Below, piece by piece: positions 18,649 through 42,530 of a DNA stretch of 64,000 nt. The notes below the pieces were generated by a model. That model did not search any database. It worked only from the letters and a program-made list of their open reading frames with translations, and was not told the DNA's origin. The stretch comes from Armatimonadota bacterium (lineage in GTDB: Bacteria > Armatimonadota > Zipacnadia > UBA1398 > JAKPQA01): NCBI GenBank assembly GCA_029547025.1, contig JAKPQA010000319.1, positions 1,263 through 65,262 of the forward strand. Reading direction: 5' to 3'. The translations under genes and the position numbers were made by a program. How positions within the stretch are numbered: the first letter of the stretch is position 1; the number at the start of each line of letters is the position of its first letter.

Positions 18649-20136
18649 CTACACGGCCGCCGCCGCTGCCTTCCGCGCGTCGGCCTCGAGCAGCGAGCGG
18701 TAGGCGCCGATGCCCTTGAGTCTCGCCTTCACCTCAGGGCTGAAGGGCAGGTGGTGCCAGAACAGAGCGCGCAGCTTGGCGTCGAGCACCGGACGGCCCT
18801 GCGCCTCGCGGGTGATCCAACTCACGTAGTCCTGCGCGAAGGCCTCGTCGATTCTGGAGCCAGCCGACTTCCCGCGAAACTGGTAGTAGGCTCCGGTCAG
18901 GCCCTCCTCCATCCAGTAGTGCATGGCCGTCTCCTGAGCGACCAGCCAGCGGTGGGCACCAAGGGCCCGAACGACCAGGTCGTTCTGCGGGCGGCCACAG
19001 TAGAGTGGGACGGCGATGCGACCGGGTGTTCTCCGGTTGCCCTTCTGCCAGGCTTCCCAACAGATGCCGTGACTGCCGGAGCACGGTAGCAGCAGAACCA
19101 GGGGCTCGATGCGGATCTCCTGGCCAAATGAGACCCGCCGGAACAGGCCGGGTTCGATGGCCTCGACCTGCTGAATCTTCTCGATGACCGACGCCCGCGA
19201 GTTGACGCCCTCTGCCAGGGTGGTGCGCACGAAGGCTGGGCTGGCGATGGGGAAGTGGTTCCCTCTTGGCCCAATGGCCATCTTCATCATCTGCCGGATG
19301 GTCGCCAGTTCGGTTCCCAGAGCCGAAGAGTCCGCCACCCCTTCGGCACCGTCCACGGCCATTCGTGCCTGCAGACGCCGTCTCAAAGAGACGGCTTCGG
19401 CATACTTGGAGCAGACCTCGACCGTGCCGCGGTCGTTACCCGATAGGTTCTCGATCTGGCTCCGCAGCTCCTGGGCAATCCGGGCGCGCTCGCGCTGTAG
19501 TGGAGCCGCCGAGGGCATCTGTCCCTCAGCGCCCTCGGCGAGCAGTTTGCGTAGATCCTGCCCCAGTGCCACGATGCGTTGTGCGCATTCGAGGAGGGCA
19601 TCGTCCGCGCTGCCCGATGACTTCAGCGCCTGCACCGCCTGGGGCTTCAGGCTGGCCACTTCGGATTCGGCCCGGGCCAGCTGAGCCGATACCGACTGGC
19701 TGGGGCGGGCCGACATGGTGCTGACCTCGTCAGTGGTACTCGGCGCAACCTCCTGGCGGAAAACGGCCATCAACCATTCGTCCACATAGTAGACCGGCCC
19801 CACCGGTCCCGGGTCGGCGCAAAGCGAGTCAACCACTGAGGCCATCTCATCGCCGAGAAGCCCCGCCACGGGGGCCGCACAGCGAAGCAGTCTGAGGTCG
19901 CGAGCATCGGGCCCCTCCGCGCAGGCGCGCGCGCCGGCTCCAGCGTACAGTGTGAAGAACCGCGTGGTCAGCCGCTGGCCAAGCGAGGCGCGGTCTGCGC
20001 CCTCGGCGGCGGAGTAGTCGGCCAGGAGACGCGGAAGGTCGGCCAGAGCCTCAGTGGTATCGGTATCCAGGTTTTCACCGCGTACCCAGTCCTCGGTGGC
20101 TGCAAGTTCACTATCCAATACGATCACCCACCCCAT
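18649..20136 (-). CDS. Hypothetical cytoplasmic protein, divergent from the secretin operon
   Basis: The long ORF has no hits I recognise. The start is set at the internal MGWVIVLDSE. There is a central coiled-coil-like stretch (AQLARAESEVASLKPQAVQALK...). Confidence 0.4.
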   Translation of the reverse strand: MGWVIVLDSELAATEDWVRGENLDTDTTEALADLPRLLADYSAAEGADRASLGQRLTTRFFTLYAGAGARACAEGPDARDLRLLRCAAPVAGLLGDEMASVVDSLCADPGPVGPVYYVDEWLMAVFRQEVAPSTTDEVSTMSARPSQSVSAQLARAESEVASLKPQAVQALKSSGSADDALLECAQRIVALGQDLRKLLAEGAEGQMPSAAPLQRERARIAQELRSQIENLSGNDRGTVEVCSKYAEAVSLRRRLQARMAVDGAEGVADSSALGTELATIRQMMKMAIGPRGNHFPIASPAFVRTTLAEGVNSRASVIEKIQQVEAIEPGLFRRVSFGQEIRIEPLVLLLPCSGSHGICWEAWQKGNRRTPGRIAVPLYCGRPQNDLVVRALGAHRWLVAQETAMHYWMEEGLTGAYYQFRGKSAGSRIDEAFAQDYVSWITREAQGRPVLDAKLRALFWHHLPFSPEVKARLKGIGAYRSLLEADARKAAAAAV

Positions 20137-20424
20137 GGCAAGCCAGAGCGACGCGCGGCAGCCATGCACAGGGTTCCACACGGCGGCGGTGGACAGCGGC
20201 CCGGTTCCGAGCCAGTTCGGTCAACAAGGCGTGACAGTTTCGGGACGCTTCACGAGGAGGTCAAGGGGGGGCGCCAACGAAGGTGTAGGGTTATCCGGCT
20301 TCCCATGGCGCCGTCGGCAATGCCCTGGGGTCGTGACCCGACCCGCACCCAGGGCCGTCGGGCCGCCGTAACGAAGGAGTCCCCCCGCAGTCGGCCGTGT
20401 GCGAGCCCTGAGGAGGTCCCCGGT

Positions 20425-21762
20425 GTGAAAGCGCGATCATTGTGGCCCATGGTCTGCCCCTGCGTGATCCTCCTGGCGGCGGCAGCCCGTCCCGAGGCGG
20501 ACGCCACCACCGATAACCCTGTGGTCGGCCCGCCCGCCGCCCCAACCGACACACCCACGGCACCCGATAAGGGGCCCCTCATCACCATCACCCCCGAAGG
20601 GGTGTCCGTCTATGCCGTCCGGTGTGACGCGCATGCCCTGCTGACCGACATCGCCCGGAAGACCGGGTTCTCGATCATCGTCGACGACTCGGTCCGTGGC
20701 GTCCTGACCGTGAACTTCAAAAACCGCAAGGTGTCCGACATCATCCGGGACATCGCCGCCACCTACGGCCTGGCCTGCCGCGAGGAGAACGGCGTGTTCA
20801 CCATCACCGAAGGACTGCCGGCCCACGTCTCGTCCTACCTGCTCTCGGAGATGGCTTCGGTGCGTCCCGACTACATACCGGCCAGCGATGCCGAGCAGCT
20901 CCTCCCCGTGTTCCTGCAGGACTATACGGCGCCAAGTCTCCATCAGAACGCCGTGGTGCTGTCCGCCCCGCCCGAGATCCTCGAGAAGTTCCGCGGCGAC
21001 GTGAAGCAGTTCGATGTGCCGGCCGCTCAGATCATGATCGAGGTCCTGATGGTCGAGTTTGGCGAGACGAACAGCGACGAGTTCTACGCCAAGCTCGGTT
21101 GGTCGCGGAACGGCCGGGGAGTCACCACCGACTCGGCTCGGGGGGCGGCCACGTTCCACGTGCTGGGCGATCTGCCGGTGGGCTTCACGGCGGAGCTCCG
21201 GGCCATGGAGGCCGCCGGCAGAGCCCACGTTCGCGCCAACCCGCGGATCGCCACCGTCAGCGGGCGCGAGGCCAGTGTCTTCATCGGTGAAAGGCGGTTC
21301 CTGGCCAAGCCCGTCGAGATGTCGGGCGGAGATGATGGCAACGATGACAACCGGCGGCAGATCAACTTCATCAACGCCGGAGTGAACCTCAGCATCACGC
21401 CGTGGACCGGCGGAGAGGGCGAGATCCAGGCTCAGATCCAGACCGAGGTCTCAACCATGAGCGCACCCGATGCCGTAACCGGGTTACCCCAGAAACAGAC
21501 TCGATCCGCCAGCACGGACATCCGGATGCTCGACGGCGAGACGGTGCTCATTGGCGGGCTGGTCCAGGATGAGATGATCGAGACCAAGTCCAAGATACCG
21601 GTCCTCGGCGACATCCCGCTGATCGGCAAACTCTTCCGTAGCAAGAACACACGGCGATTCCAGACCGAGCTGGTGGTGTTCGTAACCGCCAGGATCCTGC
21701 CGGGAAGCAACGGGAATGGCCAACCACACGCCGCCAAGGAGGCCCGCGCGACCGCACCATGA
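20425..21762 (+). CDS. Secretin-family outer-membrane channel protein, paralog 1
   Basis: The C-terminus GGLVQDEMIETKSKIPVLGDIPLIGKLFRSKNTRRFQTELVVFVTARIL is the canonical secretin motif (VP.LGDIPllG.LFr.....e.ElliFiTPrIv). An N0/secretin-N-like segment LLTDIARKTGFSIIVDDSVRGVLTVNFKNRKVSDIIRDIAATYGL is present. The GTG start with GAGGAGG 8 nt upstream gives the signal peptide VKARSLWPMVCPCVILLAAAA. Confidence 0.75.
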   Translation: MKARSLWPMVCPCVILLAAAARPEADATTDNPVVGPPAAPTDTPTAPDKGPLITITPEGVSVYAVRCDAHALLTDIARKTGFSIIVDDSVRGVLTVNFKNRKVSDIIRDIAATYGLACREENGVFTITEGLPAHVSSYLLSEMASVRPDYIPASDAEQLLPVFLQDYTAPSLHQNAVVLSAPPEILEKFRGDVKQFDVPAAQIMIEVLMVEFGETNSDEFYAKLGWSRNGRGVTTDSARGAATFHVLGDLPVGFTAELRAMEAAGRAHVRANPRIATVSGREASVFIGERRFLAKPVEMSGGDDGNDDNRRQINFINAGVNLSITPWTGGEGEIQAQIQTEVSTMSAPDAVTGLPQKQTRSASTDIRMLDGETVLIGGLVQDEMIETKSKIPVLGDIPLIGKLFRSKNTRRFQTELVVFVTARILPGSNGNGQPHAAKEARATAP

Positions 21763-23474
21763 CGCCCCATCACGCTGCCCCTCGATTCGGCATGGCCCCC
21801 CTGCTTGCCCTGGCGATGGCAGGCGCGGCCGTCCCTGCCCTGGCGCAGGTCGGCCGCGTGTACTGCAACGTGACCGAAGTAAAGGCCACGCAGCTCTCGA
21901 ACGCGGTTCGCATCGATCTCCGGTGCGACGGGCAGCTCGAGGTCGCCGCGGACCTCACGGACTACGTCGAGGTGGATCCGCGGCAGGGCGGCGTCACCGC
22001 CGCCAAGCCGGTCCGGAACATCGTGTTGCGGCTGACGAACGCCAAGTCCAGGGTGGGCGCGTTCATCGATGTCGGTCGCTACCCCGTGAGCCACGTCGAG
22101 ATGGCCCCCCTGCCCGACAGCCCCGATGGCGTCGGCGTGGCCTGCACGATCTCGCTCTACCCCCCGGGCCGCACCAACGGCCTCCGTATGGCTCCGTACT
22201 ACCTCGATCCCCACGACTTCATCGAGGCCGGCCTGGGCTTCAGGCCCGGCGAGGTCCGATGGCTTGTTCAGGAGGCCGACGACCGGCGCGGCCTCGTGTT
22301 CATCGTGACCTCGGATCGCTTCGCCATCGATGCCGACTCCTCCCCTGAGGAAGAGGTCCCCTATACGCTCGACATCGGCTATGCCGACGGGCTGGTGGAA
22401 GTGCGTGCCGTGCGCGCGCCGATCGGCGCATTGGCGGAAACCATCGGAGCGCGCACCGGGCTCCGTTGCACCGTGGCCGGCGACCCGGGCCGGCGCGTGT
22501 CACTCTACGTGCCGCCCACTCGGCCGGAGCGGGTGTTGAGTGAACTCGCCCGCTCCCAGGGGCTGACGCTGATGAAAGACCCCGCCGGTCCCATGCAGCT
22601 GCAGGCCCTCGCTCCCCGCGACCCGGCCACCTATGACGGTACGGAGACACGCTTGCTCCGGCTGAACCACCTGACGGCCGAGGAGGCACTCGGGCTCCTG
22701 CCGGTGTGCCTTCTGCGCTATGTGCGACCCAGCCCCGAGCAGAACGCCCTCGTCGCGTCGGGCTCCACCGAGCTGCTCGACCACCTGCAGGCGAATCTGC
22801 AGGCCGTCGACCTGCCCGCCCCGATCATCGAGGTCGTCGTCGAGGTCCTGGCCCACTTCAGCGATCGTGGCTCACTGGCCCACCTCGCCATCGACGGCCA
22901 GGCGGGCCGCTGGGTTGGTGGGGCGAGCGGGGAGGGCCTCGAGGCATTCTGTACGCCCGTCGGAGCTCTGCGACCCGAACTCGAAGCGCACATCCGCGAC
23001 CTGCGCCTCGCCGGCGAGCTCGACGTCGTGACCCGGCAGCGTCTCAGCATCACCAATGGTAGCAAGGGCCACGTGTTCGTCGGTGACCAGCCGACGATTG
23101 TGACCAGCTACTATGACTACTTCGAGAACGAGATGCGACCGGATCTGACGGTGGTCGACGTCGGCGCCCGGCTCGAGATCGAGCCGTGGACCGGCAACCG
23201 CGAGGACATCACCGTCCACCTCTCCCCCGCGGTCTCGAGCATCCGCGGCGAGGATCCGATCACCGGTATGCCCGTGCTGAGTGTGCGCAGGGCCGAGGCC
23301 ACCGTCCGCGTGCGGGCCGGCGAGCCAATCGTGCTGGGCGGGCTCAGCATGTTCTCCGACGAGAGCACACACCACCGGCTCAACCTGCCGGTCATTCAGT
23401 CCATATTCCGGGGTCGAGGCCGCACGGAGCAGAACGCCGAGTTCAGCTTCGTGGTCACCCCCAGGGTGCTGTAG
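21759..23474 (+). CDS. Secretin-family protein, paralog 2
   Basis: The C-terminus GEPIVLGGLSMFSDESTHHRLNLPVIQSIFRGRGRTEQNAEFSFVVTPRVL is secretin-like. The signal peptide is MAPLLALAMAGAAVPALAQVG. The ATG overlaps the paralog-1 stop (ATGA). Confidence 0.75.
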   Translation: MTPHHAAPRFGMAPLLALAMAGAAVPALAQVGRVYCNVTEVKATQLSNAVRIDLRCDGQLEVAADLTDYVEVDPRQGGVTAAKPVRNIVLRLTNAKSRVGAFIDVGRYPVSHVEMAPLPDSPDGVGVACTISLYPPGRTNGLRMAPYYLDPHDFIEAGLGFRPGEVRWLVQEADDRRGLVFIVTSDRFAIDADSSPEEEVPYTLDIGYADGLVEVRAVRAPIGALAETIGARTGLRCTVAGDPGRRVSLYVPPTRPERVLSELARSQGLTLMKDPAGPMQLQALAPRDPATYDGTETRLLRLNHLTAEEALGLLPVCLLRYVRPSPEQNALVASGSTELLDHLQANLQAVDLPAPIIEVVVEVLAHFSDRGSLAHLAIDGQAGRWVGGASGEGLEAFCTPVGALRPELEAHIRDLRLAGELDVVTRQRLSITNGSKGHVFVGDQPTIVTSYYDYFENEMRPDLTVVDVGARLEIEPWTGNREDITVHLSPAVSSIRGEDPITGMPVLSVRRAEATVRVRAGEPIVLGGLSMFSDESTHHRLNLPVIQSIFRGRGRTEQNAEFSFVVTPRVL

Positions 23475-23484
23475 GGGCGGCGAG

Positions 23485-25227
23485 ATGAGACGTAGAGGAA
23501 CATGGCTGTCGTTGTGGCTGCTCGGCCTGATCTCTGCCCAGGCTCAAGCCATCGTCTACTGCAACATCACCGACGTCCGGTGTGACGTGCTCTCCAACGG
23601 TATCCAGGTCACCGTGGCATCGGATGGCATTCTGGAGTATCAGCATCCCACCGAGCAGTGGCAGCCGCGTTACTGGAGCGGCAAGAGCCTGACGCTCCTG
23701 TTCCCCGGCGCTCGCTCCAAGTTCGGACGCAACTTCATCGACGTGAGCAAGTTCCCCGTGAGCTTCATTCAGCTGTCCATTCCCACCACGGCCCAGGAGG
23801 GCGTTGGCATTCTCCTGACCGTATCGGCGATGGCCAACACGGACTTCCGCATCTCCCAGGCCGCCAACCGCCAAAGCGTCATCATCACGGTGGCCAGTAC
23901 GCGCACGCTCGAGAAGGGAGCCGGTGCGACAGCCACCTCGGGTGGCGAGGCCCAGCTCACCGTCGAGACCCGGAACGGCACCGCGTCCGTCCATGCCGTG
24001 AACGCCGACGTGCACGAGGTGTTCGCCCGTGTGGCGCAGGCGCTCAACCTCGACGTCGCCGTCGATGACGGCGTCGACCGTCGCATCAGCGTCTTCATGG
24101 CCGACGTTCCGGGTGAGGACCTGCTGCGAGCCATTGCCCGGGCCGCCGGGCTCGCCCTCGTCAAGACCCCCGATGGCACCTTCATGGTCAGCGCGGGTGT
24201 GGTCGAGGATCTGGCGACCTATCGTCTCACCGAGACGCGATCCTTCCGGATGCACAACATCCAGGCGTCCTCGGCCGCCCAGCTGCTGCCCACCTTCATC
24301 TTCCCCTACCTGCACCAGAACAAGCCCCAGAACGCCGTGGTCGTCACCGCCCAGGAGGATATGCTCGAGAAGATCGAGGCGGACCTGAGGGCCATCGACA
24401 AGGCGCCGCCCCAGATCATGATCGAGGTCCTGGCCGTGGAGTTCATCGACACCAGGGAGGCCGAGCGGTCCCTGGCGCTCCTCCACAACACGGCGGGCTC
24501 CGCCGACACCTACGACTCGACCCTCGGCGATATCAGCTACTCGACCATCGGCGTGCTGCCCGAGGAGTTCCTCGCCAATGTGAACTGGCTCAAGAGCAAG
24601 GGCAAGGCGGTCATCAAAGCGCAGCCGAAGATGGCTGTCCTCAACGGGGGTCAAGCGAGGATTTTCATCGGGTCGACCCGGTTCATCGAGGTCGAGGTGA
24701 GTCAGTGGGGCAGTGTGTCCCGTCGCATCCAGGGAGTCAACGTGGGCGTGACGCTCGACATCTCACCGTGGACCGGCGAGAGCCGGGAGATCACGACCAC
24801 CATCGCGCCCACCGTCTCGAACATCTCCGAGCTCGACTCGGAAACCGGCCTCCCCGTACTCAGCACGCGCGATGCCAAGACGCAGGTCCGGGCGCTCAGC
24901 GGCGAGACCATCATGATCGGAGGCCTCTCCCTCGAGCAGGCGCAAGTCACGAGCCACAAGACGAAGGTCCTTGGTGATCTGCCTCTCATCGGCAAACTCT
25001 TCCGCCGCAAAGCGACCCAGCGAACCGAGTCCCTGCTGGTCATCTTCGTCACACCCAGGCTGCTCGATGAGCGCGGCCGACTGCCGGAGGCCGAGCGCGA
25101 GTCGATCCACAAGCGGTTCCTGGAGTCCGACCACGGGTGGCAGGAACCCGCGACCATCGAGGTGAAGCGCTCGGGTGACCGCCTGAGCTGGAGGGAGACC
25201 GTCGCGACTCCGGCTTCGGGGTCGTGA
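23485..25227 (+). CDS. Secretin-family protein, paralog 3
   Basis: The C-terminus GETIMIGGLSLEQAQVTSHKTKVLGDLPLIGKLFRRKATQRTESLLVIFVTPRLL is secretin-like. The signal peptide is MRRRGTWLSLWLLGLISAQAQA. The ATG sits 10 nt after the paralog-2 stop. Confidence 0.8.
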   Translation: MRRRGTWLSLWLLGLISAQAQAIVYCNITDVRCDVLSNGIQVTVASDGILEYQHPTEQWQPRYWSGKSLTLLFPGARSKFGRNFIDVSKFPVSFIQLSIPTTAQEGVGILLTVSAMANTDFRISQAANRQSVIITVASTRTLEKGAGATATSGGEAQLTVETRNGTASVHAVNADVHEVFARVAQALNLDVAVDDGVDRRISVFMADVPGEDLLRAIARAAGLALVKTPDGTFMVSAGVVEDLATYRLTETRSFRMHNIQASSAAQLLPTFIFPYLHQNKPQNAVVVTAQEDMLEKIEADLRAIDKAPPQIMIEVLAVEFIDTREAERSLALLHNTAGSADTYDSTLGDISYSTIGVLPEEFLANVNWLKSKGKAVIKAQPKMAVLNGGQARIFIGSTRFIEVEVSQWGSVSRRIQGVNVGVTLDISPWTGESREITTTIAPTVSNISELDSETGLPVLSTRDAKTQVRALSGETIMIGGLSLEQAQVTSHKTKVLGDLPLIGKLFRRKATQRTESLLVIFVTPRLLDERGRLPEAERESIHKRFLESDHGWQEPATIEVKRSGDRLSWRETVATPASGS

Positions 25228-25247
25228 TCGGGAGGCGAGAGGCCCCG

Positions 25248-26258
25248 ATGACCTGGAGGGCGCGGACGCGAGGAAAACCGGGGCGAGTTTGTGCGGGCAT
25301 CGCCTGGCTTTCCCTGGTCTGCACCTGTGGCTGCGGGCTGTCCGCGGGTGGGGGTGAGGGAGCCGCCGGCTCGGACTACGAGGTGCTCTACGTCCGCGAT
25401 GGCCGCCTCGTCGCCGTTCACCCCGATGGGTCCGACGCCCGCGTGGTGAACTCTGCACTCACCGGCTGCCGCGAGCCCCAGGGGTCGCCCGATGGGCGTT
25501 TCATCGCCTGCGTCTCCGGTGCCTTCGTCTACATCATGGCCCGCGACGGCTCCGGGGCTCACGCCGTCGCTGGGCGCGTCGCCACCGCCGAGCCGGTCTA
25601 TCCCAACTGGTCGCCCGACGGGCGGAAGCTGTGTTTCGCCGGGCTGGACCAACGCGTCCACGTGCTCGAGCTCGACGCCACCATGGGCCCGGAGCGCGAG
25701 ACGGCCATCGCGGCAGGCCCGGGCGGCGCGCCCGCCACACCGAGCTTCCTGACCAACCAGAGACTGCTCTTCGCCGCGCGCGCCCCCGAGGCGGCCGGGC
25801 CCGGCCAGGGCGACGGCTGGCTCTACACGGTGAACATCGATGGCAGCGGCCTGCTGCCCTTCTTCTCCTCCGCCACCTCGGTCTACGGCGTCGACCCGAC
25901 TCGCGGCAACGTCCGGCGCGCCGTCCGCGCGAACCGCGCGGACTGGATCGTGTTCGAGAGCGATGTTCGCGGCGGCTACGACCTGTGGCTCGCCTACCTC
26001 GATGGCGATGTCTACGGCTGTGTTACGCAATACGACTACCCGGTTGGCGAGTCGGCGCGAGGCACCGCGGCCTGGGAGCGCAATGTGGCCGGGCGCTGGA
26101 CACCCGACGGCCGAATCGCCTACGAGTCCGCCCACTACGATGCCCTGGGATGGGGCGTGCCGCAGATCTGGATCACCGACAAGTTCGGCTCATACCCCGT
26201 GCAGCTCACCCACGACCCCGAGGGTGCACACCAGCCAGGGATCCTGGTGAGCGAGTAG
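25248..26258 (+). CDS. TolB-like beta-propeller lipoprotein (PD40/WD40-like repeats)
   Basis: PD40-type repeats PNWSPDGRKLCF, GSPDGRFIACVS and GRWTPDGRIAYES are present. A lipobox-like WLSLVCTCGCG follows a positively charged N-region. The ATG at 25248 has GGGAGG upstream. An alternative GTG at 25224 overlaps the secretin-3 stop. Confidence 0.6.
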   Translation: MTWRARTRGKPGRVCAGIAWLSLVCTCGCGLSAGGGEGAAGSDYEVLYVRDGRLVAVHPDGSDARVVNSALTGCREPQGSPDGRFIACVSGAFVYIMARDGSGAHAVAGRVATAEPVYPNWSPDGRKLCFAGLDQRVHVLELDATMGPERETAIAAGPGGAPATPSFLTNQRLLFAARAPEAAGPGQGDGWLYTVNIDGSGLLPFFSSATSVYGVDPTRGNVRRAVRANRADWIVFESDVRGGYDLWLAYLDGDVYGCVTQYDYPVGESARGTAAWERNVAGRWTPDGRIAYESAHYDALGWGVPQIWITDKFGSYPVQLTHDPEGAHQPGILVSE

Positions 26259-26422
26259 CGACCGGGCATGGGCGTCCATGGGCCGCAGAGTCGAAGGAGC
26301 TCGTCCGCTTGCCCAGGGTCTGGCGATCCGCCCGGAGGTCGTTTGGGGCCCAGCGGTAGCAGCTGGCCTCAGGGGGGTAAGAGCCTCGGGTGCGCTCATT
26401 GCGGTCCTCCGACGGGCCGTGA

Positions 26423-26797
26423 GCCTCCCCAGGCGTAGACGTTCCTGATCGGTCGGCCGCGGGTCCATCGGGGCGGGGGGAGAGGGCGACGGGGGGCGGC
26501 GAGCTGGATGACATCCTGTACTGCCCCCACCGGCCCGACGAGGCGTGCGCCTGCCGCAAACCGCGGCCCGGTCTGATCCTGGAGGCCATCGCGCGGTACG
26601 AGGTCGATCCGGCATCGTCATTCATGATCGGCGATCGCGAGGGCGACATGGCGGCGGGCCGCGCCGCCGGCGTGCGGACCATCCGTATCGTGACTCGCCT
26701 GACGGGTGCCGACGCGGCCCACACCCAGGCCGAACACCAGGCGCCGGACTTGCCCACGGCGGTGGATTACATCCTCGGTGCGGCAAGCGTGAAGTAG
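26423..26797 (+). pseudogene. 3' fragment of a gmhB-like HAD-IIIA phosphatase (D,D-heptose-1,7-bisphosphate phosphatase family); N-terminal catalytic part absent
   Basis: The in-frame translation ...GGGELDDILYCPHRPDEACACRKPRPGLILEAIARYEVDPASSFMIGDREGDMAAGRAAGV... matches the GmhB/HisB-N C-terminal half (yyCPHhP....C.CRKP.PGml..A......S.miGD...Dm.aa..AG). There is an in-frame stop at ~26420 and no DxDGT motif in any upstream frame. Coordinates are within a few nt. Confidence 0.45.
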
Positions 26798-26815
26798 AGG
26801 CGGTCACGGGCCGGG

Positions 26816-29800
26816 CTAGCCCTCCAGTCCGGCCAGTCGCGCCACGTGTGCTTTGCTACCGTCGTTGGCCCATGGGTCCAGTTCGCTGGGATCCTTCAGC
26901 TGCTGTCCCCGGCGGCGAGGGACCGCCAGGTACCCGCAGCGCACGTCGGCCAGCGCGGTCATATCGCCCCAGAGTTTCTCGAACTGGGCCGTGGGGTACA
27001 CATCCTCCTGGCCGTGACCCCAGCGCCATTTCACGTCTTTGATCGTCACATAGGTCGGCACGCGCCCGGCCAAGTGACGCACGGCCTCAGTGAGCCGTTC
27101 TTCCGGCCCGCGCAGATCGTTGCGGTTCAGCCCGAAGAGGTCGAGCAGCGGATCGATCTCGATCCAGCAGGTGCCCGAGTTGTAGTAGCGCAACCGCAGC
27201 TCGTCCCCGTCGCGTGGCTGGGCCAACCCTTCGAGCAGACGAATCCGCCCGTTCACCCGCGCCAACCCGCCGCCGCGATCGTTGGCACGCCGCGGCACCA
27301 CCTCGAAGGTCAATGCGTTGCCTGATGCCAGGTGAGCGCCCAAGGCCGCCGGATCGAGGTCGGCCCCCAGCGTGTCGATGTTGTGGAGCATGATGGTGGT
27401 GAGCTTCGGGTGCTCCTCCAGCAGCCGCGCTAGCACGCCGTTCCTCAGCAGATTCGGTACCTCATACCAGTGTCCTGGTGGGTGGAATCGTTGGGCAGGG
27501 ATGTTGTCCACATAGTCACTCCCCTCGCCCTTCTCCTTGGCCCACCTGACCAGGGCTGCGCGAACGGCATCTCGCACCTTTTGCTTCTGCTCGTCCAGAG
27601 CCTCCTGGGCCGTTTCCTCCCAGAGGCACACCAGGTCGCGCACCATGGGGATCATCCGCTGGCCGATTGCTCGCCCCGGCGACAGGTACACCGATCCCTC
27701 ATAGCCGTGGTTCCCGTGGCGCTCGAGGTGCTCGGCGATCGGCTCGTGCGTCAGGAAGCTGGTCGACACGATGTGTGGCACGTTCGTCCCATAGCCTCGG
27801 GACGTCTGGAGTGTCTTGCGGAGGTGGATCTCGAGGAAGCTCCGGTGGTGCCCGGCCATGAGTACGAAGGGGCTGAGGGCCTTGATGACGCCCGCGCCAG
27901 CGGTCCAGCGCGTCCCGACACCGGCTGCCAGGGACATTACGGCTACGCGGCCCTCGCGCAGAGCCCGCATACCCAGCTCCCGATGGTCACCGCAGGCATC
28001 GAGGGCCATCACATCGCCCGGCTCGACATCGCGGATCTCCGTCTCGACGGGAAGCCGGTTGTGAGCCAGGCCCGTGCGGCCTTGGCGGAGATCCGCGCGA
28101 AGCTGCTCGTGGAGCACCGGGTCGAACCCGTTGCGTCTCTTGATCTCCGCCGCCTCGGCATCCCACGCCAACCGGTCTCCCTGTGACGCCGGGTCGGAGA
28201 CGCGGAACAGATTGCTGACCAGGGTGCGGAGCAGTCCGTAGGCCTGGCCGGGTTGGTCGCAGCGGGTGGTGAAATGGTCGAGCTCGGCCCGCCGCAGGTA
28301 TGAGAGATCATCACGGTGCTGGCGCACCAGTTCCGGGGTCTGTAGCGCATAGTACCGTGCCGGCATCATGGCTTCGACACCCTCGAGCAGCGAGGCCACT
28401 GTGCCGTGCTCGTTCACGCGGAAGTCGTACACCAGCGGGTCGATGGCGAACGGGAGTGAGGCCTCGAGCTCTCGCTTCGCCTCGCACATGATCTCGAGCA
28501 CCTCGTCCCGGAATCGCCCATGGCGCTCCGGGGCCACGAACATGGCCATGCCGCCCCCGGACATGCCTCCGAGCATGAGGAAGCCCCAGAAGTCATCCTG
28601 CAGGCGCTGCCGGGCGCGCGCGATGAGGGTCTCGGTGAAGGCGTTGGTGACCCATGGGATGATGGTCTTCAGGGGGCCGGACCAGTTGCGGGTGGTGTTG
28701 CGCGCCAGCTCGAGCACATCGCCGGATCGCAGCGCCGCCACGATGTGGTCGAAGATCTCGCGCATGTGCTGACGGGCTTCCCACTCGGCCTGGTTCCGCA
28801 GCAGGTATTTCTCGGTGACCATCTCGAGGATCGGCCCCACGTTCTGAGCCAATCCGCCGTGGATCAGGACCAGGGAGTCGGCCAGCTGCTGGGCCGTGGC
28901 CGGGTGGAGGTCGTCGGCACCCAGAATCCTGTGCCGCGGCAGCAGGCGGCCTTTGCTGATGCCGAACTCGGGGTCACCGGGCTCGGCGACCGCCCCTTGG
29001 ATGATCTTGAACCCCGGCCAGAGCCCGCCCGAGTCCTGCCAGCCGCCGCCCGAGCCCCCCAGCCACTCCCCCAGGATGGCCCGTGAGGCCACCAGGCGCC
29101 GCTCGCGTTCGAGCAGAGGCCCCGTAAGCTGCGCGGTCTGCCCCGTGGCGCGCATGAGGACACTCACAATGCACGCCAGCAGATTCGTGGACACCGCCAG
29201 CCGCGACCCTTTGGGGATGTCGTTCACATTCGTGACGAGCTCCAGTCCCATACCCGGCCCGATGACGCGCGAGAGCAGGCGCGGCAGCGACTGCCCCGTC
29301 CCCTCGAACGCCGGGGGGACCACGCCGGAAGCGATGACACCCGCCTTCAGCAGCCCCAGGTAGTCGTCGCCGAAGTTGAACAGGTCACGAAGGTCCGTGA
29401 TGTCCTTCGTGGCCGGCAGGTCAACACTCGTGAGCCGCAGTACGGGCTCGGGGATGACACGGACATAGGCCTCGATGGGTGGTCGAACCGCTCTGTCCCG
29501 TCCGTAGACGCCGAGGTCAACGGAGATGTTGAGGACTCGCGCACCCTCGGGGTAATCCATGCCCAGGAAGAAGATGTCCGACCAGCCTGAGTGGCTGAGA
29601 TCGAGCCGGACCGGCGTTCGCTCGACCAGCACGGGATACAGGAGGGATCCCTCGCGGCGTGTGAGCAGGTCTTGCCGGATCCGCACGGGGTGATCCTCGA
29701 CATGGCTGGTGCGGAACATCCACTGGTTTCCGCGGCTGGCACGGACACTGCGCCGCACCTGGTCCACCAGACTCTGGAAGGCGAGGCGGTGGTAGCCCTC

Positions 29801-30151
29801 GGCCAAGGCGCTGGATAGGGCCGAGTTTGGCCCCTCGGTTCGCTGCACGCGGAGGAGCCGGTCGATGGCCTGACCGAAGCGGCGGGCCAGCAGGTCTTCG
29901 AATGCCTGCTGGGGGATGACGCCAGTCTGGGGGATGCCGGGCGATTCCATGAGGGCGAACCGGTGCGCGGCGTACAGGAAGAGGGCCGCGCGGACCCGGT
30001 GGTAGAGGTTCTCCGTCGACCGGCGGAACGCGTCGAGCTCATCGCAGGCGGAGACCAATTCGGTGGCTGTGAGCCCCGTGCAGAGCTCCTCGAAGGGGCG
30101 ATCCCGTTCCGCAGGCTCCGTACTGGTGATGGTGCGGATGAAAGCGTTCAC
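26816..30151 (-). CDS. Large multidomain protein: unknown N-domain + GHMP-kinase-like domain + UDPGP-family (UDP-sugar/UGPase-type) pyrophosphorylase domain
   Basis: GHMP-like glycine motifs are LGGSGGGWQDSGG and LMLGGMSGGGMAMFVAPE. UDPGP-family signatures are LAAGVGTRW (compare LNGGLGTSMG), LHNIDTLGADLDP (compare SNIDNLGATVD) and YNSGTCWIEID (compare FNTNNLWISL). The 1111-aa frame is continuous. Confidence 0.6.
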   Translation of the reverse strand: MNAFIRTITSTEPAERDRPFEELCTGLTATELVSACDELDAFRRSTENLYHRVRAALFLYAAHRFALMESPGIPQTGVIPQQAFEDLLARRFGQAIDRLLRVQRTEGPNSALSSALAEGYHRLAFQSLVDQVRRSVRASRGNQWMFRTSHVEDHPVRIRQDLLTRREGSLLYPVLVERTPVRLDLSHSGWSDIFFLGMDYPEGARVLNISVDLGVYGRDRAVRPPIEAYVRVIPEPVLRLTSVDLPATKDITDLRDLFNFGDDYLGLLKAGVIASGVVPPAFEGTGQSLPRLLSRVIGPGMGLELVTNVNDIPKGSRLAVSTNLLACIVSVLMRATGQTAQLTGPLLERERRLVASRAILGEWLGGSGGGWQDSGGLWPGFKIIQGAVAEPGDPEFGISKGRLLPRHRILGADDLHPATAQQLADSLVLIHGGLAQNVGPILEMVTEKYLLRNQAEWEARQHMREIFDHIVAALRSGDVLELARNTTRNWSGPLKTIIPWVTNAFTETLIARARQRLQDDFWGFLMLGGMSGGGMAMFVAPERHGRFRDEVLEIMCEAKRELEASLPFAIDPLVYDFRVNEHGTVASLLEGVEAMMPARYYALQTPELVRQHRDDLSYLRRAELDHFTTRCDQPGQAYGLLRTLVSNLFRVSDPASQGDRLAWDAEAAEIKRRNGFDPVLHEQLRADLRQGRTGLAHNRLPVETEIRDVEPGDVMALDACGDHRELGMRALREGRVAVMSLAAGVGTRWTAGAGVIKALSPFVLMAGHHRSFLEIHLRKTLQTSRGYGTNVPHIVSTSFLTHEPIAEHLERHGNHGYEGSVYLSPGRAIGQRMIPMVRDLVCLWEETAQEALDEQKQKVRDAVRAALVRWAKEKGEGSDYVDNIPAQRFHPPGHWYEVPNLLRNGVLARLLEEHPKLTTIMLHNIDTLGADLDPAALGAHLASGNALTFEVVPRRANDRGGGLARVNGRIRLLEGLAQPRDGDELRLRYYNSGTCWIEIDPLLDLFGLNRNDLRGPEERLTEAVRHLAGRVPTYVTIKDVKWRWGHGQEDVYPTAQFEKLWGDMTALADVRCGYLAVPRRRGQQLKDPSELDPWANDGSKAHVARLAGLEG

Positions 30152-30152
30152 G

Positions 30153-31124
30153 CTAGCTCACCCGCTCCATGGCGCGGCCCAGCCTGGCTTCCGCCAGGAG
30201 ATCGGCGATGGCGCCCAGGACCTCTGCCTGATCGTTGCCGGTCAGGCCCAGGGCGATCTGAGTTCGGAGGAGGCCATAGCGCTGGCCGATGTCGCACCAC
30301 CGGCCGTCGACCTCCAGCGCCAGGCATTTCTGCCGTTGGGCGAGTTCGTGGAGGGCAGGAGTGAGTTGGTACTCCCCCTCTTCGGCGCCGCCGCGTTCGA
30401 TGCTCTCTTCGAGGATCTCGAGGATCTCGGGCGTCAGCACATGCATCCCAAGCAGGCACAGGTAGTGCCCGGCGCGCAGACCGGGGGTCTGGAGCTCGAG
30501 CTCAGCCAGGCTTACCGAAGGCTTCTCGATGATTCGCTCGATCTGGTACACCCCGGCCAGGTCAGGGACGTGGGATCCCGCTAGCGTCCCGTAGTTGCCG
30601 ATCAGGTGTTCTCGGGTCGACTGGACCGTGGAGACGGCGCATTTCGCTTGGGTGGCGAGCCCGATCGCCAACTCGGCGCCGTGCTTCCCGTTCTCGCGGG
30701 GCACATAGAGGTGATCGCCGAGTAGGAGCATGAAGGGCTCGGCGCCCACGAAGTGCCGGCCGCAGTAGACCGCGTGCCCGTAGCCCAGGGGCTCCTCCTG
30801 GACCGCAAAATGCAGTCGTGCCAGCAGATCCCCGATCCGATCCGCCTGGGCTTCGGCCCACGGGCCGCTGTGAGGCGCGGCCAGGAGGTTTTGGCGGAGA
30901 AGGCCAAACTGGGCGAGGTATTGAGCCTCATCGCCGGGGGCACAGATGATGCAGATCTCCTCGATGCCGCTGGCGAGGGCCTCCTCGGCGATGATCTGGA
31001 TGACCGGCTTCGCCACGCCGTCGCGATCGATGAGGGGGAGCATGGCCTTCTGGACAGTGCTCGCGGCCGGGTATAGCCGGGCACCTCGCCCGGCGGCTGT
31101 GATGAGCGCTTTGCGGACCTGCAT
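30153..31124 (-). CDS. GalU-type UTP--glucose-1-phosphate uridylyltransferase-like nucleotidyltransferase
   Basis: ALITAAGRGARLYPAASTVQKAMLPLIDRDGVAKPVIQIIAEEALASGIEEICII matches the GalU N-terminus (AvIPAAGlGTRfLPATKaiPKEMLPivDkP.IQY.veEA..aGi). There is a C-terminal extension of ~100 aa. The stop abuts the start of the 1111-aa gene. Confidence 0.7.
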   Translation of the reverse strand: MQVRKALITAAGRGARLYPAASTVQKAMLPLIDRDGVAKPVIQIIAEEALASGIEEICIICAPGDEAQYLAQFGLLRQNLLAAPHSGPWAEAQADRIGDLLARLHFAVQEEPLGYGHAVYCGRHFVGAEPFMLLLGDHLYVPRENGKHGAELAIGLATQAKCAVSTVQSTREHLIGNYGTLAGSHVPDLAGVYQIERIIEKPSVSLAELELQTPGLRAGHYLCLLGMHVLTPEILEILEESIERGGAEEGEYQLTPALHELAQRQKCLALEVDGRWCDIGQRYGLLRTQIALGLTGNDQAEVLGAIADLLAEARLGRAMERVS

Positions 31125-31244
31125 GGCTTGTTCCTCTCGTGGCAGCAGGTGCTCACCGCCCCTGCGGCAGAGCAGGGAATGCCTGGTATACGACACCAAC
31201 CTGCAGATTGGTGGTCCTGAGATCCAGGAGTCCACAGTGCTTGG

Positions 31245-31949
31245 TCAGGTTGGCGCCATGGTTGGCTCGGCGCGTGCGGCGTTGGCCGCGGGCGATCTGC
31301 GCGGTGAGCGCGCCCAGACTATCGGGCGTGTGGTTGGCCAGTTCTGGCCGCGCAGGTTCGCCCACACCACTACCGTCCACCGGAGGTGCGGTCGCAGCTG
31401 TCGCACGTTCGGACGCTGGGAGCAGCCACTCTCGTCGACGAAAACCACGGTGGCATGCGCGTTCAGCGCCCCCCCCAAGACGCGAGGCCACTCCTCGGCC
31501 TGCCATGCCGCGATCCACTCCTCATTGCGCTGTTTGGCGCGCCGCGAGGGCTTCTGGCAACTGAAACCCATCTGCTGCATTATCTGCCACACCTGGGTCA
31601 CTGACCGCTGGACACCAAACCGCTTCTTGATGACCTGGACGATCCGAGTCAAAGCCCACAGGTCGGTGCTGTATCCATGGGCTCGCGGGCCCCGCAGCAG
31701 TTCCTCCCTCAGTATCCGTAGCTCTTCGGCACCCAGAGCGGGCCGGTAGCCCCGCGGTCCAATGCTCCGCAGCGCCTCGACCCCCCCCTCCTGCCATTTC
31801 CTCCGCCCGCCACACGCGGCGTGGGCACTCACGCCCAGCCTCCGGGCCACCTCGCTGCCGGACATGCCGGCCTCGAACAGCGGGCCTGCTTCCATGCGAC
31901 AGGTTTCCAGCGCCGCCGTGTTCTGTGGGTTTCTCGGTAGCTTGGCCAT
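31245..31949 (-). mobile_element. IS630/Tc1-family transposase remnant (HTH domains and start of DDE domain, then frame decay)
   Basis: The N-terminal HTH is GMSGSEVARRLGVSAHAA. ...WALTRIVQVIKKRFGVQRSVTQVWQIMQQMGFSCQKPSRRAKQRNEEWIAAWQAEEWPRVL..ATVVFVDESG is the first DDE Asp region. The downstream translation then becomes Arg/Pro nonsense, indicating a frameshift or truncation. No inverted repeats were identified. Confidence 0.55.
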
Positions 31950-32189
31950 GCATACATGTACTAGACACATCCACTCCGTGCCTACATTCCCAAAACGGGA
32001 ATGTCATTAGTCCGCATCCCCCGTTCCGTCGTGTTGTCGGCCCACACACGACAAGCGCATGCGCCTCGACCTATACTCTGTCATGGACCCAAGAGCTCCA
32101 TCCTCGTGCAGGCGCCGCCATCAAGAGGATCAGTGGTGTTGCGGCGGTCGGCCTGTAGGAGCCGAGGGGTACCAAGGGAGCTGAAGGGT

Positions 32190-32588: not shown

Positions 32589-32900
32589 GTCGGGCACTGG
32601 ACCCGATGGTCTGAACTGCCTCTGCTACCAGCGTGTGAGTGGCGACTCCCTGTTTCTCAATCGGCCCACTGCATGGCCGCCCGAAGTCCGGCTTCGCCCG
32701 TCGTCTCCGGTAACAGACCCCGATGGAACCAACTTGAAAGCATGAGTCGGGTCCGGGGCCTCAGAACATGGCATATGAGCGATGCATCGCCGACGTGCGT
32801 CAGGGCTGCTCGAGCGATGTTTGGTGTGCGGATGGCGAGATCGGGTCGGGGTCCGGCCGGGCCCGGAAGCCACATGGGGGGGCTGCTAGGAGCGAGAGGC

Positions 32901-33701
32901 ATGGCGCAGGATGGCTGGTTACGCGAAGATCAGGTGGTTGCCGATCTGACCAAGGAGGCGATCCTTCAGACCATTGCGGGATCCATGGAGCGGGTCGAAC
33001 TGGGGGCCGTCGAGGACGGGACCCTCTGTTGGTACCCGTCGCGGTTGGTCGCGACTGAGCCCGATGGTCGCCTGGTACTGGTGGCCAGCGACGCCCTGCG
33101 GCAGAGCGCGGCCGGACGACCCGGCAGCCGACTCCTGCTATGCCTGCGCGGCTCCAGCGGCGGCTATGTCGGCCAGGTGCTCGTCTGCGCCGAGGGGCCG
33201 GACGATCCGAACCAGCCGGAGCACACGATCGCCGTCTCGCCTCCTGCGGTGTTTCACCTTCTCCGAAGAAGAGAGCATCAGCGTCTGCGTCTGAGTCCGC
33301 CCATCGAGGCGCAGGTGAGCTTCGCGGGGATGCGCTTCCGGTGCCAGGCGGTGGTTGAGGACGTCAGCGTCTCCGGCGCTCGGGTGCGGGTCTTCCCGCC
33401 CACTCCCGATGGGAGTGAGCTGCCGGTGGGTGCACCGGCGGGCAGATCGGGGGGCGTTATGAGGTTCGAGCTGCCCGGCAGTATGGAGCCATTGTGTTGT
33501 GAGATCTGCATCGCCTGGTGCCAGTACGTGCCCAATGCCAACGGGGACCAGTCGATGGTGATGGGTGTGAGCTGGCCTCATATGGCCGCTGTGGACAAGG
33601 CCCGGTTGTCCGATTTCCTGGCCACCCTCGGGGGTCCCGAGCCGGCAGGAGGACTCAGCCGGCGGGGCACACTGCTCGAACTGCTCACATCGCCAGAATG
33701 A
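32901..33701 (+). CDS. PilZ-domain protein (putative c-di-GMP receptor) with N-terminal domain of unknown function
   Basis: The C-terminal half has RREHQRLRLSPPIEAQVSF...RCQAVVEDVSVSGARV, which fits the PilZ RxxxR...D/NxSxxG signature. The ATG at 32901 is preceded by GAGAGG. Confidence 0.5.
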   Translation: MAQDGWLREDQVVADLTKEAILQTIAGSMERVELGAVEDGTLCWYPSRLVATEPDGRLVLVASDALRQSAAGRPGSRLLLCLRGSSGGYVGQVLVCAEGPDDPNQPEHTIAVSPPAVFHLLRRREHQRLRLSPPIEAQVSFAGMRFRCQAVVEDVSVSGARVRVFPPTPDGSELPVGAPAGRSGGVMRFELPGSMEPLCCEICIAWCQYVPNANGDQSMVMGVSWPHMAAVDKARLSDFLATLGGPEPAGGLSRRGTLLELLTSPE

Positions 33702-42403: not shown

Positions 42404-42530
42404 CACGGGCCGGCGGCTGGGCCGACTGCAAAAGCGCCCGGGCCGAGTGGAAGTGGCCCGCGAGGCGGGGAGGGCGCCATCCGATCCGTTCGGGCGGAAG
42501 GCGCTACAGTACCAGGCACGGGACAGGGCG

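What the first reader, a model, noticed from the sequence alone, without database searches (positions are those of the whole stretch)
20425..26258. Orphan operon of three tandem secretin paralogs plus a TolB-like beta-propeller lipoprotein
Three consecutive genes (20425-21762, 21759-23474, 23485-25227) each end in an unmistakable secretin C-domain. The motifs are ...PVLGDIPLIGKLFRSKNTRRFQTELVVFVTARIL, ...NLPVIQSIFRGRGRTEQNAEFSFVVTPRVL and ...KVLGDLPLIGKLFRRKATQRTESLLVIFVTPRLL. Each also carries an N0-like domain.

The three genes are tightly coupled: an ATGA overlap between paralogs 1 and 2, and a 10-nt gap between paralogs 2 and 3. A PD40-repeat TolB-like lipoprotein gene follows whose start overlaps or abuts the last stop.

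Canonical T2SS, T4P, T3SS and filamentous-phage systems use a single secretin together with an ATPase, inner-membrane platform and pseudopilins. None of those is present within 20 kb on either side here. The flanks instead hold a glycoside hydrolase and an unrelated 510-aa hypothetical. A triplicated secretin co-transcribed with a periplasmic beta-propeller and no cognate machinery suggests either a hetero-oligomeric outer-membrane channel or three specialised gates coupled to a TolB-like periplasmic partner. I do not recognise this architecture as a described system.
Basis: partly seen in the sequence, partly recalled or inferred. Interest (0 to 1): 0.8.

Follow-up and report, generated by a model that had tools for sequence, protein, structure and literature searches.

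The report
Phylum-wide three-gene PilQ-like secretin operon
Three back-to-back genes for outer-membrane "secretin" channel proteins are real and are kept together, in the same order, in every Armatimonadota lineage sampled, which suggests that these bacteria build their pilus/secretion channel from three different subunits rather than the usual one.

Summary
ORFs 20425-21762, 21759-23474 and 23485-25227 all pass Pfam Secretin. They are joined by an ATGA overlap and a 10-nt gap, and a PD40 beta-propeller gene follows. No pilus or type II secretion gene was found anywhere in the 64-kb window.

The source is an Armatimonadota MAG. The same short-middle-long secretin triplet occurs in 46 of 50 loci from at least six classes of that phylum. 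The other four loci are cut by contig ends. The three genes form position-specific clades, so the triplication is ancient.

Paralogs 2 and 3 carry an N-terminal AMIN domain, the mark of type IVa pilus PilQ. Paralog 2 evolves about twice as fast and usually lacks the conserved LGDxPxxGxLF motif.

The PD40 gene occurs only in the window's small clade and fails the TolB tests. The 510-aa neighbour belongs to a large, mostly spirochaete family that is not linked to secretins elsewhere.

Published Armatimonadota genomes encode PilB/C/D/M/T and PulE/F elsewhere and are known to be non-operonic, so "orphan" is expected here.

Best reading: this is the phylum's PilQ-like outer-membrane conduit, probably co-assembled from three paralogs. 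That last step is inferred, not shown.

The parts
20411..20417 (+). Shine-Dalgarno-like GAGGAGG ahead of the GTG start of paralog 1
   Evidence: Read directly from the sequence.
20425..21762 (+). Secretin paralog s1 (445 aa): signal peptide, Pro-rich linker, N0-like domain, N1-type domain, secretin domain. It has no AMIN domain.
   Evidence: Pfam Secretin 140 bits at residues 260-425; STN, N0 and Secretin_N matches are below threshold. Its orthologues form a clade with 100% bootstrap. The conserved LGDxPxxGxLF motif is present in 37 of 41 orthologues, and mean pairwise identity is 0.60.
21759..23474 (+). Secretin paralog s2 (571 aa): signal peptide, AMIN domain with an insertion, N0, N1-type domain, then a divergent secretin domain that ends at the last beta-strand.
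   Evidence: Pfam Secretin 66 bits. The AlphaFold model has mean pLDDT 79.7 and matches solved secretins of every class. The family evolves fast: mean pairwise identity is 0.32 and the motif is present in only 14 of 45 orthologues. In the model the motif position (residues 540-551) is a low-confidence loop with no helix.
21858..22310 (+). AMIN-like domain of s2 (about residues 34-184)
   Evidence: Aligns with the AMIN domain of s3. An AMIN profile built from the s3 family hits 45 of 45 s2 orthologues. The model shows a beta-sandwich at residues 36-184.
23485..25227 (+). Secretin paralog s3 (580 aa): signal peptide, AMIN, N0, N1-type domain, secretin domain and a tail of about 50 aa.
   Evidence: Pfam Secretin 116 bits at residues 369-527. 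Its orthologues form a clade with 100% bootstrap. More than 100 clusters at 90% identity share 38-50% identity with it; all that carry a name are Armatimonadota.
23548..23910 (+). AMIN domain of s3 (residues 22-142)
   Evidence: AlphaFold pLDDT 92.3. The best Foldseek matches in PDB are the PilQ B2/AMIN domain 4aqz, AmiC AMIN 4bin, and PilQ 4av2 and 3jc8; TM-score about 0.6, probability 0.98-1.00. Pfam AMIN matches weakly in 4 of 10 family members.
25248..26258 (+). PD40 beta-propeller protein (336 aa from ATG 25248; 344 aa from GTG 25224). Probably exported, possibly a lipoprotein. It is an add-on specific to this clade.
   Evidence: Pfam PD40 36 bits. The TolB models score far below cutoff. 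A Gly-Cys pair at the end of the hydrophobic N-terminal segment is conserved, but it is not a canonical lipobox. Full-length orthologues occur only in the window clade, in L006-L009 and in L003-L005, always directly after s3.

Best explanation
The three genes are the Armatimonadota version of the secretin PilQ. They form an ancient, phylum-wide operon of three paralogs. s1 is N0-N1-secretin; s2 and s3 are AMIN-N0-N1-secretin.

I propose that they build the gated outer-membrane conduit for type IV filament machinery (type IVa pili and/or a T2SS-like system). The ATPases, platform proteins and pilins of that machinery are encoded elsewhere, as is usual in these non-operonic genomes. The AMIN domains of s2 and s3 would anchor the complex to peptidoglycan.

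All three genes have stayed adjacent, in the same order and translationally coupled across the phylum. s2 evolves fast and usually lacks the most conserved membrane-contact motif. I therefore infer that the three proteins work together in one envelope assembly, either as a mixed ring or with s2 as a dependent or scaffold subunit, rather than as three unrelated gates.

In this clade a PD40 beta-propeller protein was added to the operon as a periplasmic or outer-membrane accessory.

Shown: domain identities, orthology, conservation and gene coupling. Inferred: the link to pili or secretion, and the co-assembly.
For: - All three proteins pass the Pfam Secretin cutoff.
- The s3 N-domain model (pLDDT 92) best matches the AMIN domains of PilQ and AmiC. 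The AMIN profile hits every s2 and s3 orthologue. AMIN-N0-N3-secretin without an S-domain is the type IVa PilQ layout (PMC10653833).
- The s1-s2-s3 order is present in 46 of 50 loci. The other 4 are cut by contig ends. The loci come from Chthonomonadia (including a C. calidirosea MAG), Fimbriimonadia, Abditibacteria, Armatimonadia, Hebobacteria and Zipacnadia.
- The s1 and s3 clades are position-specific with 100% bootstrap.
- The median distance from the upstream stop codon to the first AMIN residue is 83 nt (s1 to s2) and 73 nt (s2 to s3). That is just a signal peptide, so there is essentially no intergenic spacer in most lineages.
- No other flanking gene family is shared by more than 10 of 50 loci.
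- s2 has 0.32 mean pairwise identity against 0.60 for s1 and s3. The conserved motif is present in 14 of 45 s2, 37 of 41 s1 and 32 of 46 s3 orthologues. The amphipathic helical loop is described as the most conserved secretin region and as the first contact with the membrane (PMC6532946).
- F. ginsengisoli is fimbriated and has PilB/C/D/Q/M, six PilT, PulE/F and four COG1450 secretins (PMC4072686).
- C. calidirosea has a non-operonic genome (PMC4959169). T2SS have been called in Armatimonadetes (PMC6668835).
Against: - No pilus or T2SS gene is linked to the triplet in any of the 50 loci, so the link to that machinery rests on domain homology and on the literature for other species.
- None of the three proteins reaches the NCBIfam cutoffs for PilQ, GspD, SctC or MshL. 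The secretin domains are about equally distant from solved GspD and PilQ.
- Each paralog has its own signal peptide and a complete secretin domain. s1 and s3 are both strongly conserved, so each could form a ring of its own.
- All solved secretins known to me are homo-oligomers.
- The identification of the LGDxPxxGxLF motif with the amphipathic helical loop is my inference.
- I could not run a multimer prediction.
Confidence: 0.6

Rival explanations
1. The three proteins are independent homo-oligomeric gates. Each paralog forms its own ring and serves a different type IV filament machine (for example pili, T2SS-like secretion and DNA uptake). They sit together only because they arose by tandem duplication and are co-regulated.
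For: - Each has its own signal peptide and a full secretin domain.
- s1 lacks the AMIN domain that s2 and s3 carry, which suggests different periplasmic contexts.
- s1 and s3 are both highly conserved and keep the motif.
- F. ginsengisoli has several ATPase sets: PilB, PulE and six PilT (PMC4072686).
- M. xanthus has three functionally separate secretin paralogs, although they are unlinked (PMC12475490).
Against: - Adjacency, order and near-zero spacing are kept in every informative locus of a phylum noted for scattering functionally related genes (PMC4959169).
- s2 is fast-evolving and mostly lacks the motif thought to start membrane insertion (PMC6532946), which is odd for a self-sufficient gate.
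- No paralog is ever found next to a machine of its own.
Confidence: 0.25
2. The triplet is a polysaccharide or slime nozzle. The secretins export exopolymer rather than pili or proteins, as reported for PilQ/GspD-type secretins in cyanobacteria and myxobacteria.
For: - A published precedent exists (PMC12475490).
- The window flanks hold sugar-nucleotide enzymes (UDPGP and NTP_transferase), glycoside hydrolases and a PilZ-domain ORF.
Against: - The flanks differ in every lineage and no polysaccharide gene is a conserved neighbour.
- In the precedent the secretins belong to T2SS or pilus systems anyway.
Confidence: 0.07
3. This is the first reader's model: a self-contained, previously undescribed outer-membrane system in which a triplicated secretin works with a TolB-like periplasmic propeller and needs no ATPase, platform or pseudopilin machinery.
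For: - No machinery genes lie in the 64-kb window.
- The propeller gene abuts s3 and is kept in three related lineages.
Against: - The propeller is absent from all 44 species-representative loci that carry the triplet and from L010, L011 and L013. Only the window's own contig and the L003/L004 contig carried full-length orthologues in the metagenome scan.
- It fails the TolB thresholds and lacks the TolB N-terminal domain.
- Machinery genes are present elsewhere in cultured Armatimonadota (PMC4072686).
- AMIN domains link s2 and s3 to PilQ.
Confidence: 0.05

Closest known systems
PilQ, the type IVa pilus secretin (e.g. Myxococcus xanthus, Pseudomonas aeruginosa, Neisseria, cyanobacteria)
   Same: s2 and s3 have the AMIN-N0-N1/N3-secretin layout with no S-domain. 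The AMIN fold matches the PilQ B2 domain (PMC10653833). s1 resembles PilQ proteins that lack AMIN.
   Different: There are three translationally coupled paralogs instead of one gene. They are never next to pilMNOP. They score below the TIGR02515 cutoff. The middle paralog has a degenerate conserved motif.
GspD, the type II secretion secretin
   Same: The secretin domains give the best sequence matches to solved GspD structures and to TIGR02517. T2SS have been called in Armatimonadetes (PMC6668835).
   Different: There is only N0 plus one N-type domain, no N2 and no S-domain. s2 and s3 carry AMIN. There is no gspC-M neighbourhood. Scores are far below the model cutoff (152 against 351 bits).
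Genomes with several secretin paralogs (e.g. M. xanthus gspD, pilQ and mxan_3106)
   Same: More than one secretin paralog occurs in a single organism (PMC12475490).
   Different: In those genomes the paralogs are unlinked and each belongs to its own system. Here the three form one conserved operon across a phylum.
TolB (the comparison for the fourth gene)
   Same: PD40-type beta-propeller repeats and a probable periplasmic location.
   Different: There is no TolB N-terminal domain. It scores 24.7 bits against a cutoff of 343. No tolQRA-pal genes are in the window. It is restricted to one small clade.
Secretin pilotins and accessory lipoproteins (Tgl/PilF/PilW, GspS/AspS)
   Same: An exported, possibly lipidated protein is encoded beside its secretin. 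This is a possible analogy for the PD40 protein.
   Different: Known pilotins are TPR or small alpha/beta lipoproteins, not beta-propellers (PMC10653833). No interaction was tested, and the lipobox is non-canonical.

Membership tests
Secretin superfamily (Pfam PF00263) | C-terminal secretin domain scoring above the curated cutoff | tested here: met
   140.3, 66.4 and 116.2 bits against a cutoff of 27.5. The s2 model matches solved secretins of all classes at E about 1e-15 to 1e-10.
Secretin superfamily (Pfam PF00263) | Periplasmic N0 plus at least one N1/N3 ring-building domain | tested here: met
   The s2 model has beta-alpha domains at residues 203-283 and 295-367. Foldseek matches them to the N0-N1 structures of MxiD, EscC, InvG and XcpQ. 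s1 and s3 align to this region and give Pfam STN, N0 and Secretin_N matches below threshold.
Secretin superfamily (Pfam PF00263) | Conserved LGDxPxxGxLF motif (taken here to be the amphipathic helical loop) | tested here: inconclusive
   Present in window s1 and s3 and in 37 of 41 s1 and 32 of 46 s3 orthologues. Absent from window s2 and present in only 14 of 45 s2 orthologues. Equating the motif with the loop is my inference from PMC6532946.
PilQ (type IVa pilus secretin) | N-terminal AMIN domain(s). These are frequent but not universal in PilQ. | tested here: met
   Met for s2 and s3. s1 has none.
PilQ (type IVa pilus secretin) | Score at or above the NCBIfam TIGR02515 cutoff | tested here: not met
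   130, 22 and 93 bits against a cutoff of 284.
PilQ (type IVa pilus secretin) | Genomic linkage with pilM, pilN, pilO and pilP | tested here: not met
   No conserved neighbour of any kind in 50 loci, and none in the 64-kb window.
PilQ (type IVa pilus secretin) | Required for pilus extrusion | not testable with these tools
   This needs genetics or imaging in a cultured Armatimonadota species.
GspD (type II secretion secretin) | Score at or above the NCBIfam TIGR02517 cutoff | tested here: not met
   152, 38 and 118 bits against a cutoff of 351.
GspD (type II secretion secretin) | N0-N1-N2-N3 periplasmic domains and a C-terminal S-domain | tested here: not met
   Only two N-type domains appear in the s2 model, and the protein ends at the last barrel strand. 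The tails of s1 and s3 are short and not conserved.
GspD (type II secretion secretin) | Linkage with gspC, gspE-M and gspO | tested here: not met
TolB (fourth gene) | Full-length match to the TolB models (N-terminal alpha/beta domain plus six-bladed propeller) | tested here: not met
   TIGR02800 scores 24.7 bits against a cutoff of 343 and covers only model positions 311-404 of 418. NF002183 scores 25.6 against 405.
TolB (fourth gene) | Tol-Pal gene neighbourhood | tested here: not met
   No tolQ, tolR, tolA or pal gene was detected in the window.
PD40 beta-propeller repeat proteins (fourth gene) | PD40 repeat scoring above the Pfam cutoff | tested here: met
   36.1 bits against a cutoff of 20.9.

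The most novel reading that the evidence does not exclude
Armatimonadota build a naturally hetero-oligomeric secretin. In this reading one outer-membrane ring, or one stacked assembly, is made from three ancient paralogs (s1, s2 and s3). s2 has become an obligate, non-autonomous subunit. Ring sizes divisible by three, such as 12 or 15, would fit. As far as I can find, this would be the first secretin that is not a homo-oligomer.
Probability: 0.35. Interest if true: 0.8.

Novelty: new variant of a known kind. Interest (0 to 1): 0.6.

Why it matters
Every secretin structure solved so far, to my knowledge, is a ring of 12 to 16 copies of one protein. This phylum has kept three distinct, translationally coupled secretin genes together over deep evolutionary time, in genomes that otherwise scatter their operons.

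That makes it a natural test case for whether secretin rings can be heteromeric. It also bears on how ring symmetry and gating would then be set, and on how duplicated subunits become dependent on each other.

It also sheds light on the cell envelope and pilus apparatus of a little-studied, deep-branching diderm phylum that has cultured members suitable for biochemistry and cryo-EM.

Tried and rejected
- **The 510-aa divergent neighbour as part of the module.** It is conserved beside the operon in the window clade and in L003 (40% identity). However, its family has at least 706 members, mostly spirochaete, and they are not next to secretins elsewhere. I rejected it as local synteny.
- **A leader RNA or riboswitch.** Rfam found nothing in 19500-27000.
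- **Promoter and terminator scan.** The counts were no better than in shuffled sequence.
- **A profile of the N-domain against PDB sequences.** Only chance uL22 hits came back. The fold search was needed to see the AMIN domain.
- **Foldseek on the full s2 model.** It matches T3SS, T2SS, T4P and phage secretins about equally, so it cannot assign a class.
- **Supplementary tables of the F. ginsengisoli paper.** I searched them for secretin locus tags and found no text hits.
- **Apparent conserved ORFs downstream of s3 in the L023 and L015 groups.** Their composition marks them as out-of-frame shadows of genes on the other strand.
- **Prepilin-like genes near the operon.** There were 6 hits in 50 loci. 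That is no more than expected given about 79 pseudopilin genes per 5.2 Mb (PMC4072686).
- Alignment A2 was too diverse for locus scanning.

Full report
**1. Observation**

The four ORFs are present as described, and the quoted C-terminal motifs are verbatim. Pfam Secretin (PF00263) is passed by all three: 140, 66 and 116 bits against a cutoff of 27.5. The fourth ORF passes PD40.

- An ATGA overlap at 21759-21762.
- A 10-nt gap at 23475-23484.
- Either a GTGA overlap at 25224, or more likely an ATG at 25248 behind GGAGG/GAGAGG. The public gene call chose the ATG.
- A GAGGAGG precedes GTG 20425.

Pfam scans of the long ORFs across the whole 64-kb window found none of PilB/GspE, PilT, PilC/GspF, PilMNO or pilins. 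They found glycoside hydrolases, an esterase, oxidoreductases, sugar-nucleotide enzymes, pyrimidine and leucine biosynthesis genes, a sigma factor, BatA/VWA and a histidine kinase. A regex for the GspE-type Walker A gave no hit in any ORF, and a regex for prepilin N-termini gave none in the window.

**2. Source and distribution**

Exact-sequence look-up places the block in Armatimonadota MAGs (GCA_035418165.1 and GCA_035374825.1).

A homology search with paralog 3 (s3) gave more than 100 clusters at 38-50% identity over about 90% of the length. Every named one is Armatimonadota or Fimbriimonadales.

I looked up the gene context of six divergent members. In each, three tandem secretin genes lie in the same order: a short one of about 440-500 aa, a middle one of about 554-635 aa, and a third of about 551-608 aa. 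They overlap or nearly abut.

I then scanned one genome per species with an alignment of the s3 N-terminal domain. This returned 44 loci titled Chthonomonadia (including a Chthonomonas calidirosea MAG), Fimbriimonadaceae, Abditibacteria, Armatimonadia, Candidatus Hebobacteria, Candidatus Zipacnadia, HR16 and a few unclassified or probably mislabelled bins.

HMMs built from the first six triplets classify the ORFs of all 50 distinct loci. In 46 loci, s1-s2-s3 lie on one strand in that order. The other four (L021, L025, L037, L045) are cut by a contig end just upstream of s3.

A neighbour-joining tree groups the proteins by position in the operon, not by genome. The s1 and s3 clades have 100% bootstrap. 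The fast-evolving s2 clade has only 41%. The triplication therefore predates the sampled classes.

**3. Domain anatomy**

The paralogs share 27-39% identity over their common parts.

s2 and s3 carry an extra N-terminal domain of about 120-150 aa that s1 lacks. I modelled this domain from 34 family sequences (pLDDT 92.3). Its best structural matches in PDB are:
- the B2/AMIN domain of Neisseria PilQ (4aqz),
- the AMIN domain of AmiC (4bin),
- the PilQ entries 4av2 and 3jc8.

These matches have TM-score about 0.6 and probability 0.98-1.00. Pfam AMIN is weakly hit by 4 of 10 members. An AMIN profile built from the s3 family hits all 45 s2 and all 46 s3 orthologues.

A full-length model of s2 (pLDDT 79.7) shows a signal helix, AMIN, two beta-alpha N-domains and the secretin barrel elements. 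It matches solved secretins of every class, and its N-domains match N0-N1 crystal structures.

AMIN-N0-N3-secretin without an S-domain is the layout described for type IVa pilus secretins (PMC10653833).

By sequence, none of the three reaches the NCBIfam cutoffs for PilQ, GspD, SctC or MshL. The secretin domains are about equally distant from solved GspD and PilQ.

**4. Signs that the three work together**

These signs are evidence; co-assembly itself is an inference.

(a) Gene coupling. Across 41 loci, the median distance from the upstream stop codon to the first AMIN residue of the next gene is 83 nt for s1 to s2 and 73 nt for s2 to s3. That is the length of a signal peptide, so there is almost no spacer. 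One exception is L049, where a PEP-CTERM protein gene is inserted between s1 and s2.

(b) No other conserved neighbour. Clustering all flanking ORFs shows no other family shared by more than 10 of 50 loci. The recurrent ones are housekeeping genes such as dnaX, ybaB, recR, a MiaB-like enzyme and a response regulator. This is in a phylum whose genomes are known for dispersing functionally related genes (PMC4959169; PMC4072686).

(c) Unequal divergence. Mean pairwise identity in the secretin domain is 0.60 for s1, 0.60 for s3 and 0.32 for s2. The conserved LGDxPxxGxLF motif is present in 37 of 41 s1, 32 of 46 s3 and only 14 of 45 s2 orthologues. In the window's s2 model this position is a short, low-confidence loop with no helix. 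The amphipathic helical loop is described as the most conserved secretin region and as the first contact with the outer membrane (PMC6532946). Equating the motif with that loop is my inference.

A subunit that is always retained but has lost this element fits a protein that depends on its neighbours.

**5. The accessory genes**

The PD40 gene follows s3 only in the window clade, in L006-L009 (82-95% identical secretins) and in L003-L005 (about 41-48%). It is absent from L010, L011, L013 and from all 44 species-representative loci. A metagenome scan found only two contigs with full-length orthologues: the window's own sequence and the contig already held as L004. The other 43 matches were generic PD40 repeats.

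It matches TolB models only over the propeller part and far below cutoff. Its N-terminus has a conserved Gly-Cys after a hydrophobic segment, but this is not a canonical lipobox.

The divergently transcribed 489-510-aa gene is conserved in the same three lineages (40% identity). It belongs to a family of at least 706 proteins with no Pfam domain, mostly from spirochaetes, and members elsewhere are not beside secretins. I treat it as local synteny.

**6. Where the machinery is**

I could not scan the source genome. Published data fill part of the gap:
- Fimbriimonas ginsengisoli has fimbriae. Its genome encodes PilB, C, D, Q and M, six PilT, PulE/F/O, four COG1450 secretins and about 79 pseudopilin genes (PMC4072686).
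- T2SS were assigned to Armatimonadetes in the type IV filament survey (PMC6668835).

Prepilin-like genes lie near the triplet in 6 of 50 loci. That is not more than chance at this gene density.

**7. Interpretation**

The best-supported reading is that this is the phylum's PilQ-like outer-membrane conduit for type IV filament machines, encoded as three ancient paralogs that probably co-assemble.

Rivals:
- Three independent gates for three machines.
- A polysaccharide nozzle (precedent in PMC12475490).

The last is the least supported, because the propeller is clade-limited and is not TolB, and because machinery genes exist elsewhere in the phylum.

**8. Novelty**

Five full-text searches found no description of tandem, triplicated or hetero-oligomeric secretins, or of secretins in Armatimonadota beyond gene counts. 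The library is incomplete, so this is not proof of absence.

I class the finding as a new variant of a known kind. The proteins are ordinary secretin family members. The conserved three-subunit operon, and what it implies, is the unusual part.

Noticed in passing
window 18649-20118 (-) (the ORF extends to 20181): This is a protein of about 490-510 aa with no Pfam domain. Its family has at least 706 members, mostly from Spirochaetes (e.g. Spirochaeta africana, Marispirochaeta) plus some Armatimonadota. The C-terminal half is very conserved (GPxGNHFP ... LPCxGxxGxCW ... GNRRTPGR ... ETAMHYWMEEGLTGAYY). The family appears to be uncharacterised.
   Followed up: partly
window 21861-21875 and 23554-23568 (start of the AMIN domains): A cysteine in the first AMIN strand (motif Y-C-N-[IV]-T) is nearly invariant in s2 and s3 across the phylum, although some lineages replace it with A, S or T. 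It is not a lipobox position. It could form a disulfide, possibly between subunits.
   Followed up: no
L049 6584-7603 (+): In one Abditibacteriaceae MAG a 339-aa gene is inserted between s1 and s2. It ends in a PEP-CTERM-type sorting signal (VPEPSTLTLMALGVAGLLGRRRK). It is the only gene-sized gap between s1 and s2 among the 41 loci measured (1372 nt; the next largest is 295 nt).
   Followed up: partly
L026 6866-8605 (+) and 8606-9493 (+): In a Chthonomonadales MAG, s3 is split into two ORFs, either by an in-frame stop or by an assembly error. A prepilin-type gene (AFTLIELLVVIAIIAILAAILFP) follows directly on the same strand.
   Followed up: no
L010 11823-13741 (-): A small cluster of three genes, including an N_methyl (prepilin-like) gene, lies convergent to the secretin operon on a 2.69-Mb Armatimonadota contig.
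   Followed up: partly
L009 161-1739 (-): The 500-aa neighbour gene is split into two overlapping ORFs in one metagenome population. This could be a frameshift or a pseudogene.
   Followed up: no
window 32589-33701 (+): An ORF with a C-terminal PilZ domain (24.7 bits against a cutoff of 22.5), a possible c-di-GMP receptor, lies about 6 kb downstream of the operon.
   Followed up: no
window 31245-32003 (-): An ORF with helix-turn-helix domains only (HTH_33, HTH_23, HTH_32), resembling the N-terminal part of an IS630-type transposase. It may be a remnant of a mobile element. In L006 an IS110 transposase sits upstream of the block.
   Followed up: no
window 26816-30151 (-) and 30153-31235 (-): A 1111-aa protein whose only recognised part is a C-terminal UDP-glucose pyrophosphorylase-like domain overlaps by 4 nt with an NTP_transferase gene. 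This is a large uncharacterised sugar-nucleotide enzyme pair.
   Followed up: no
window 42354-44543 (+): A DUF6785/DUF6784 membrane protein lies here. The same family also occurs near the secretin block in L006-L009, on the other side.
   Followed up: no
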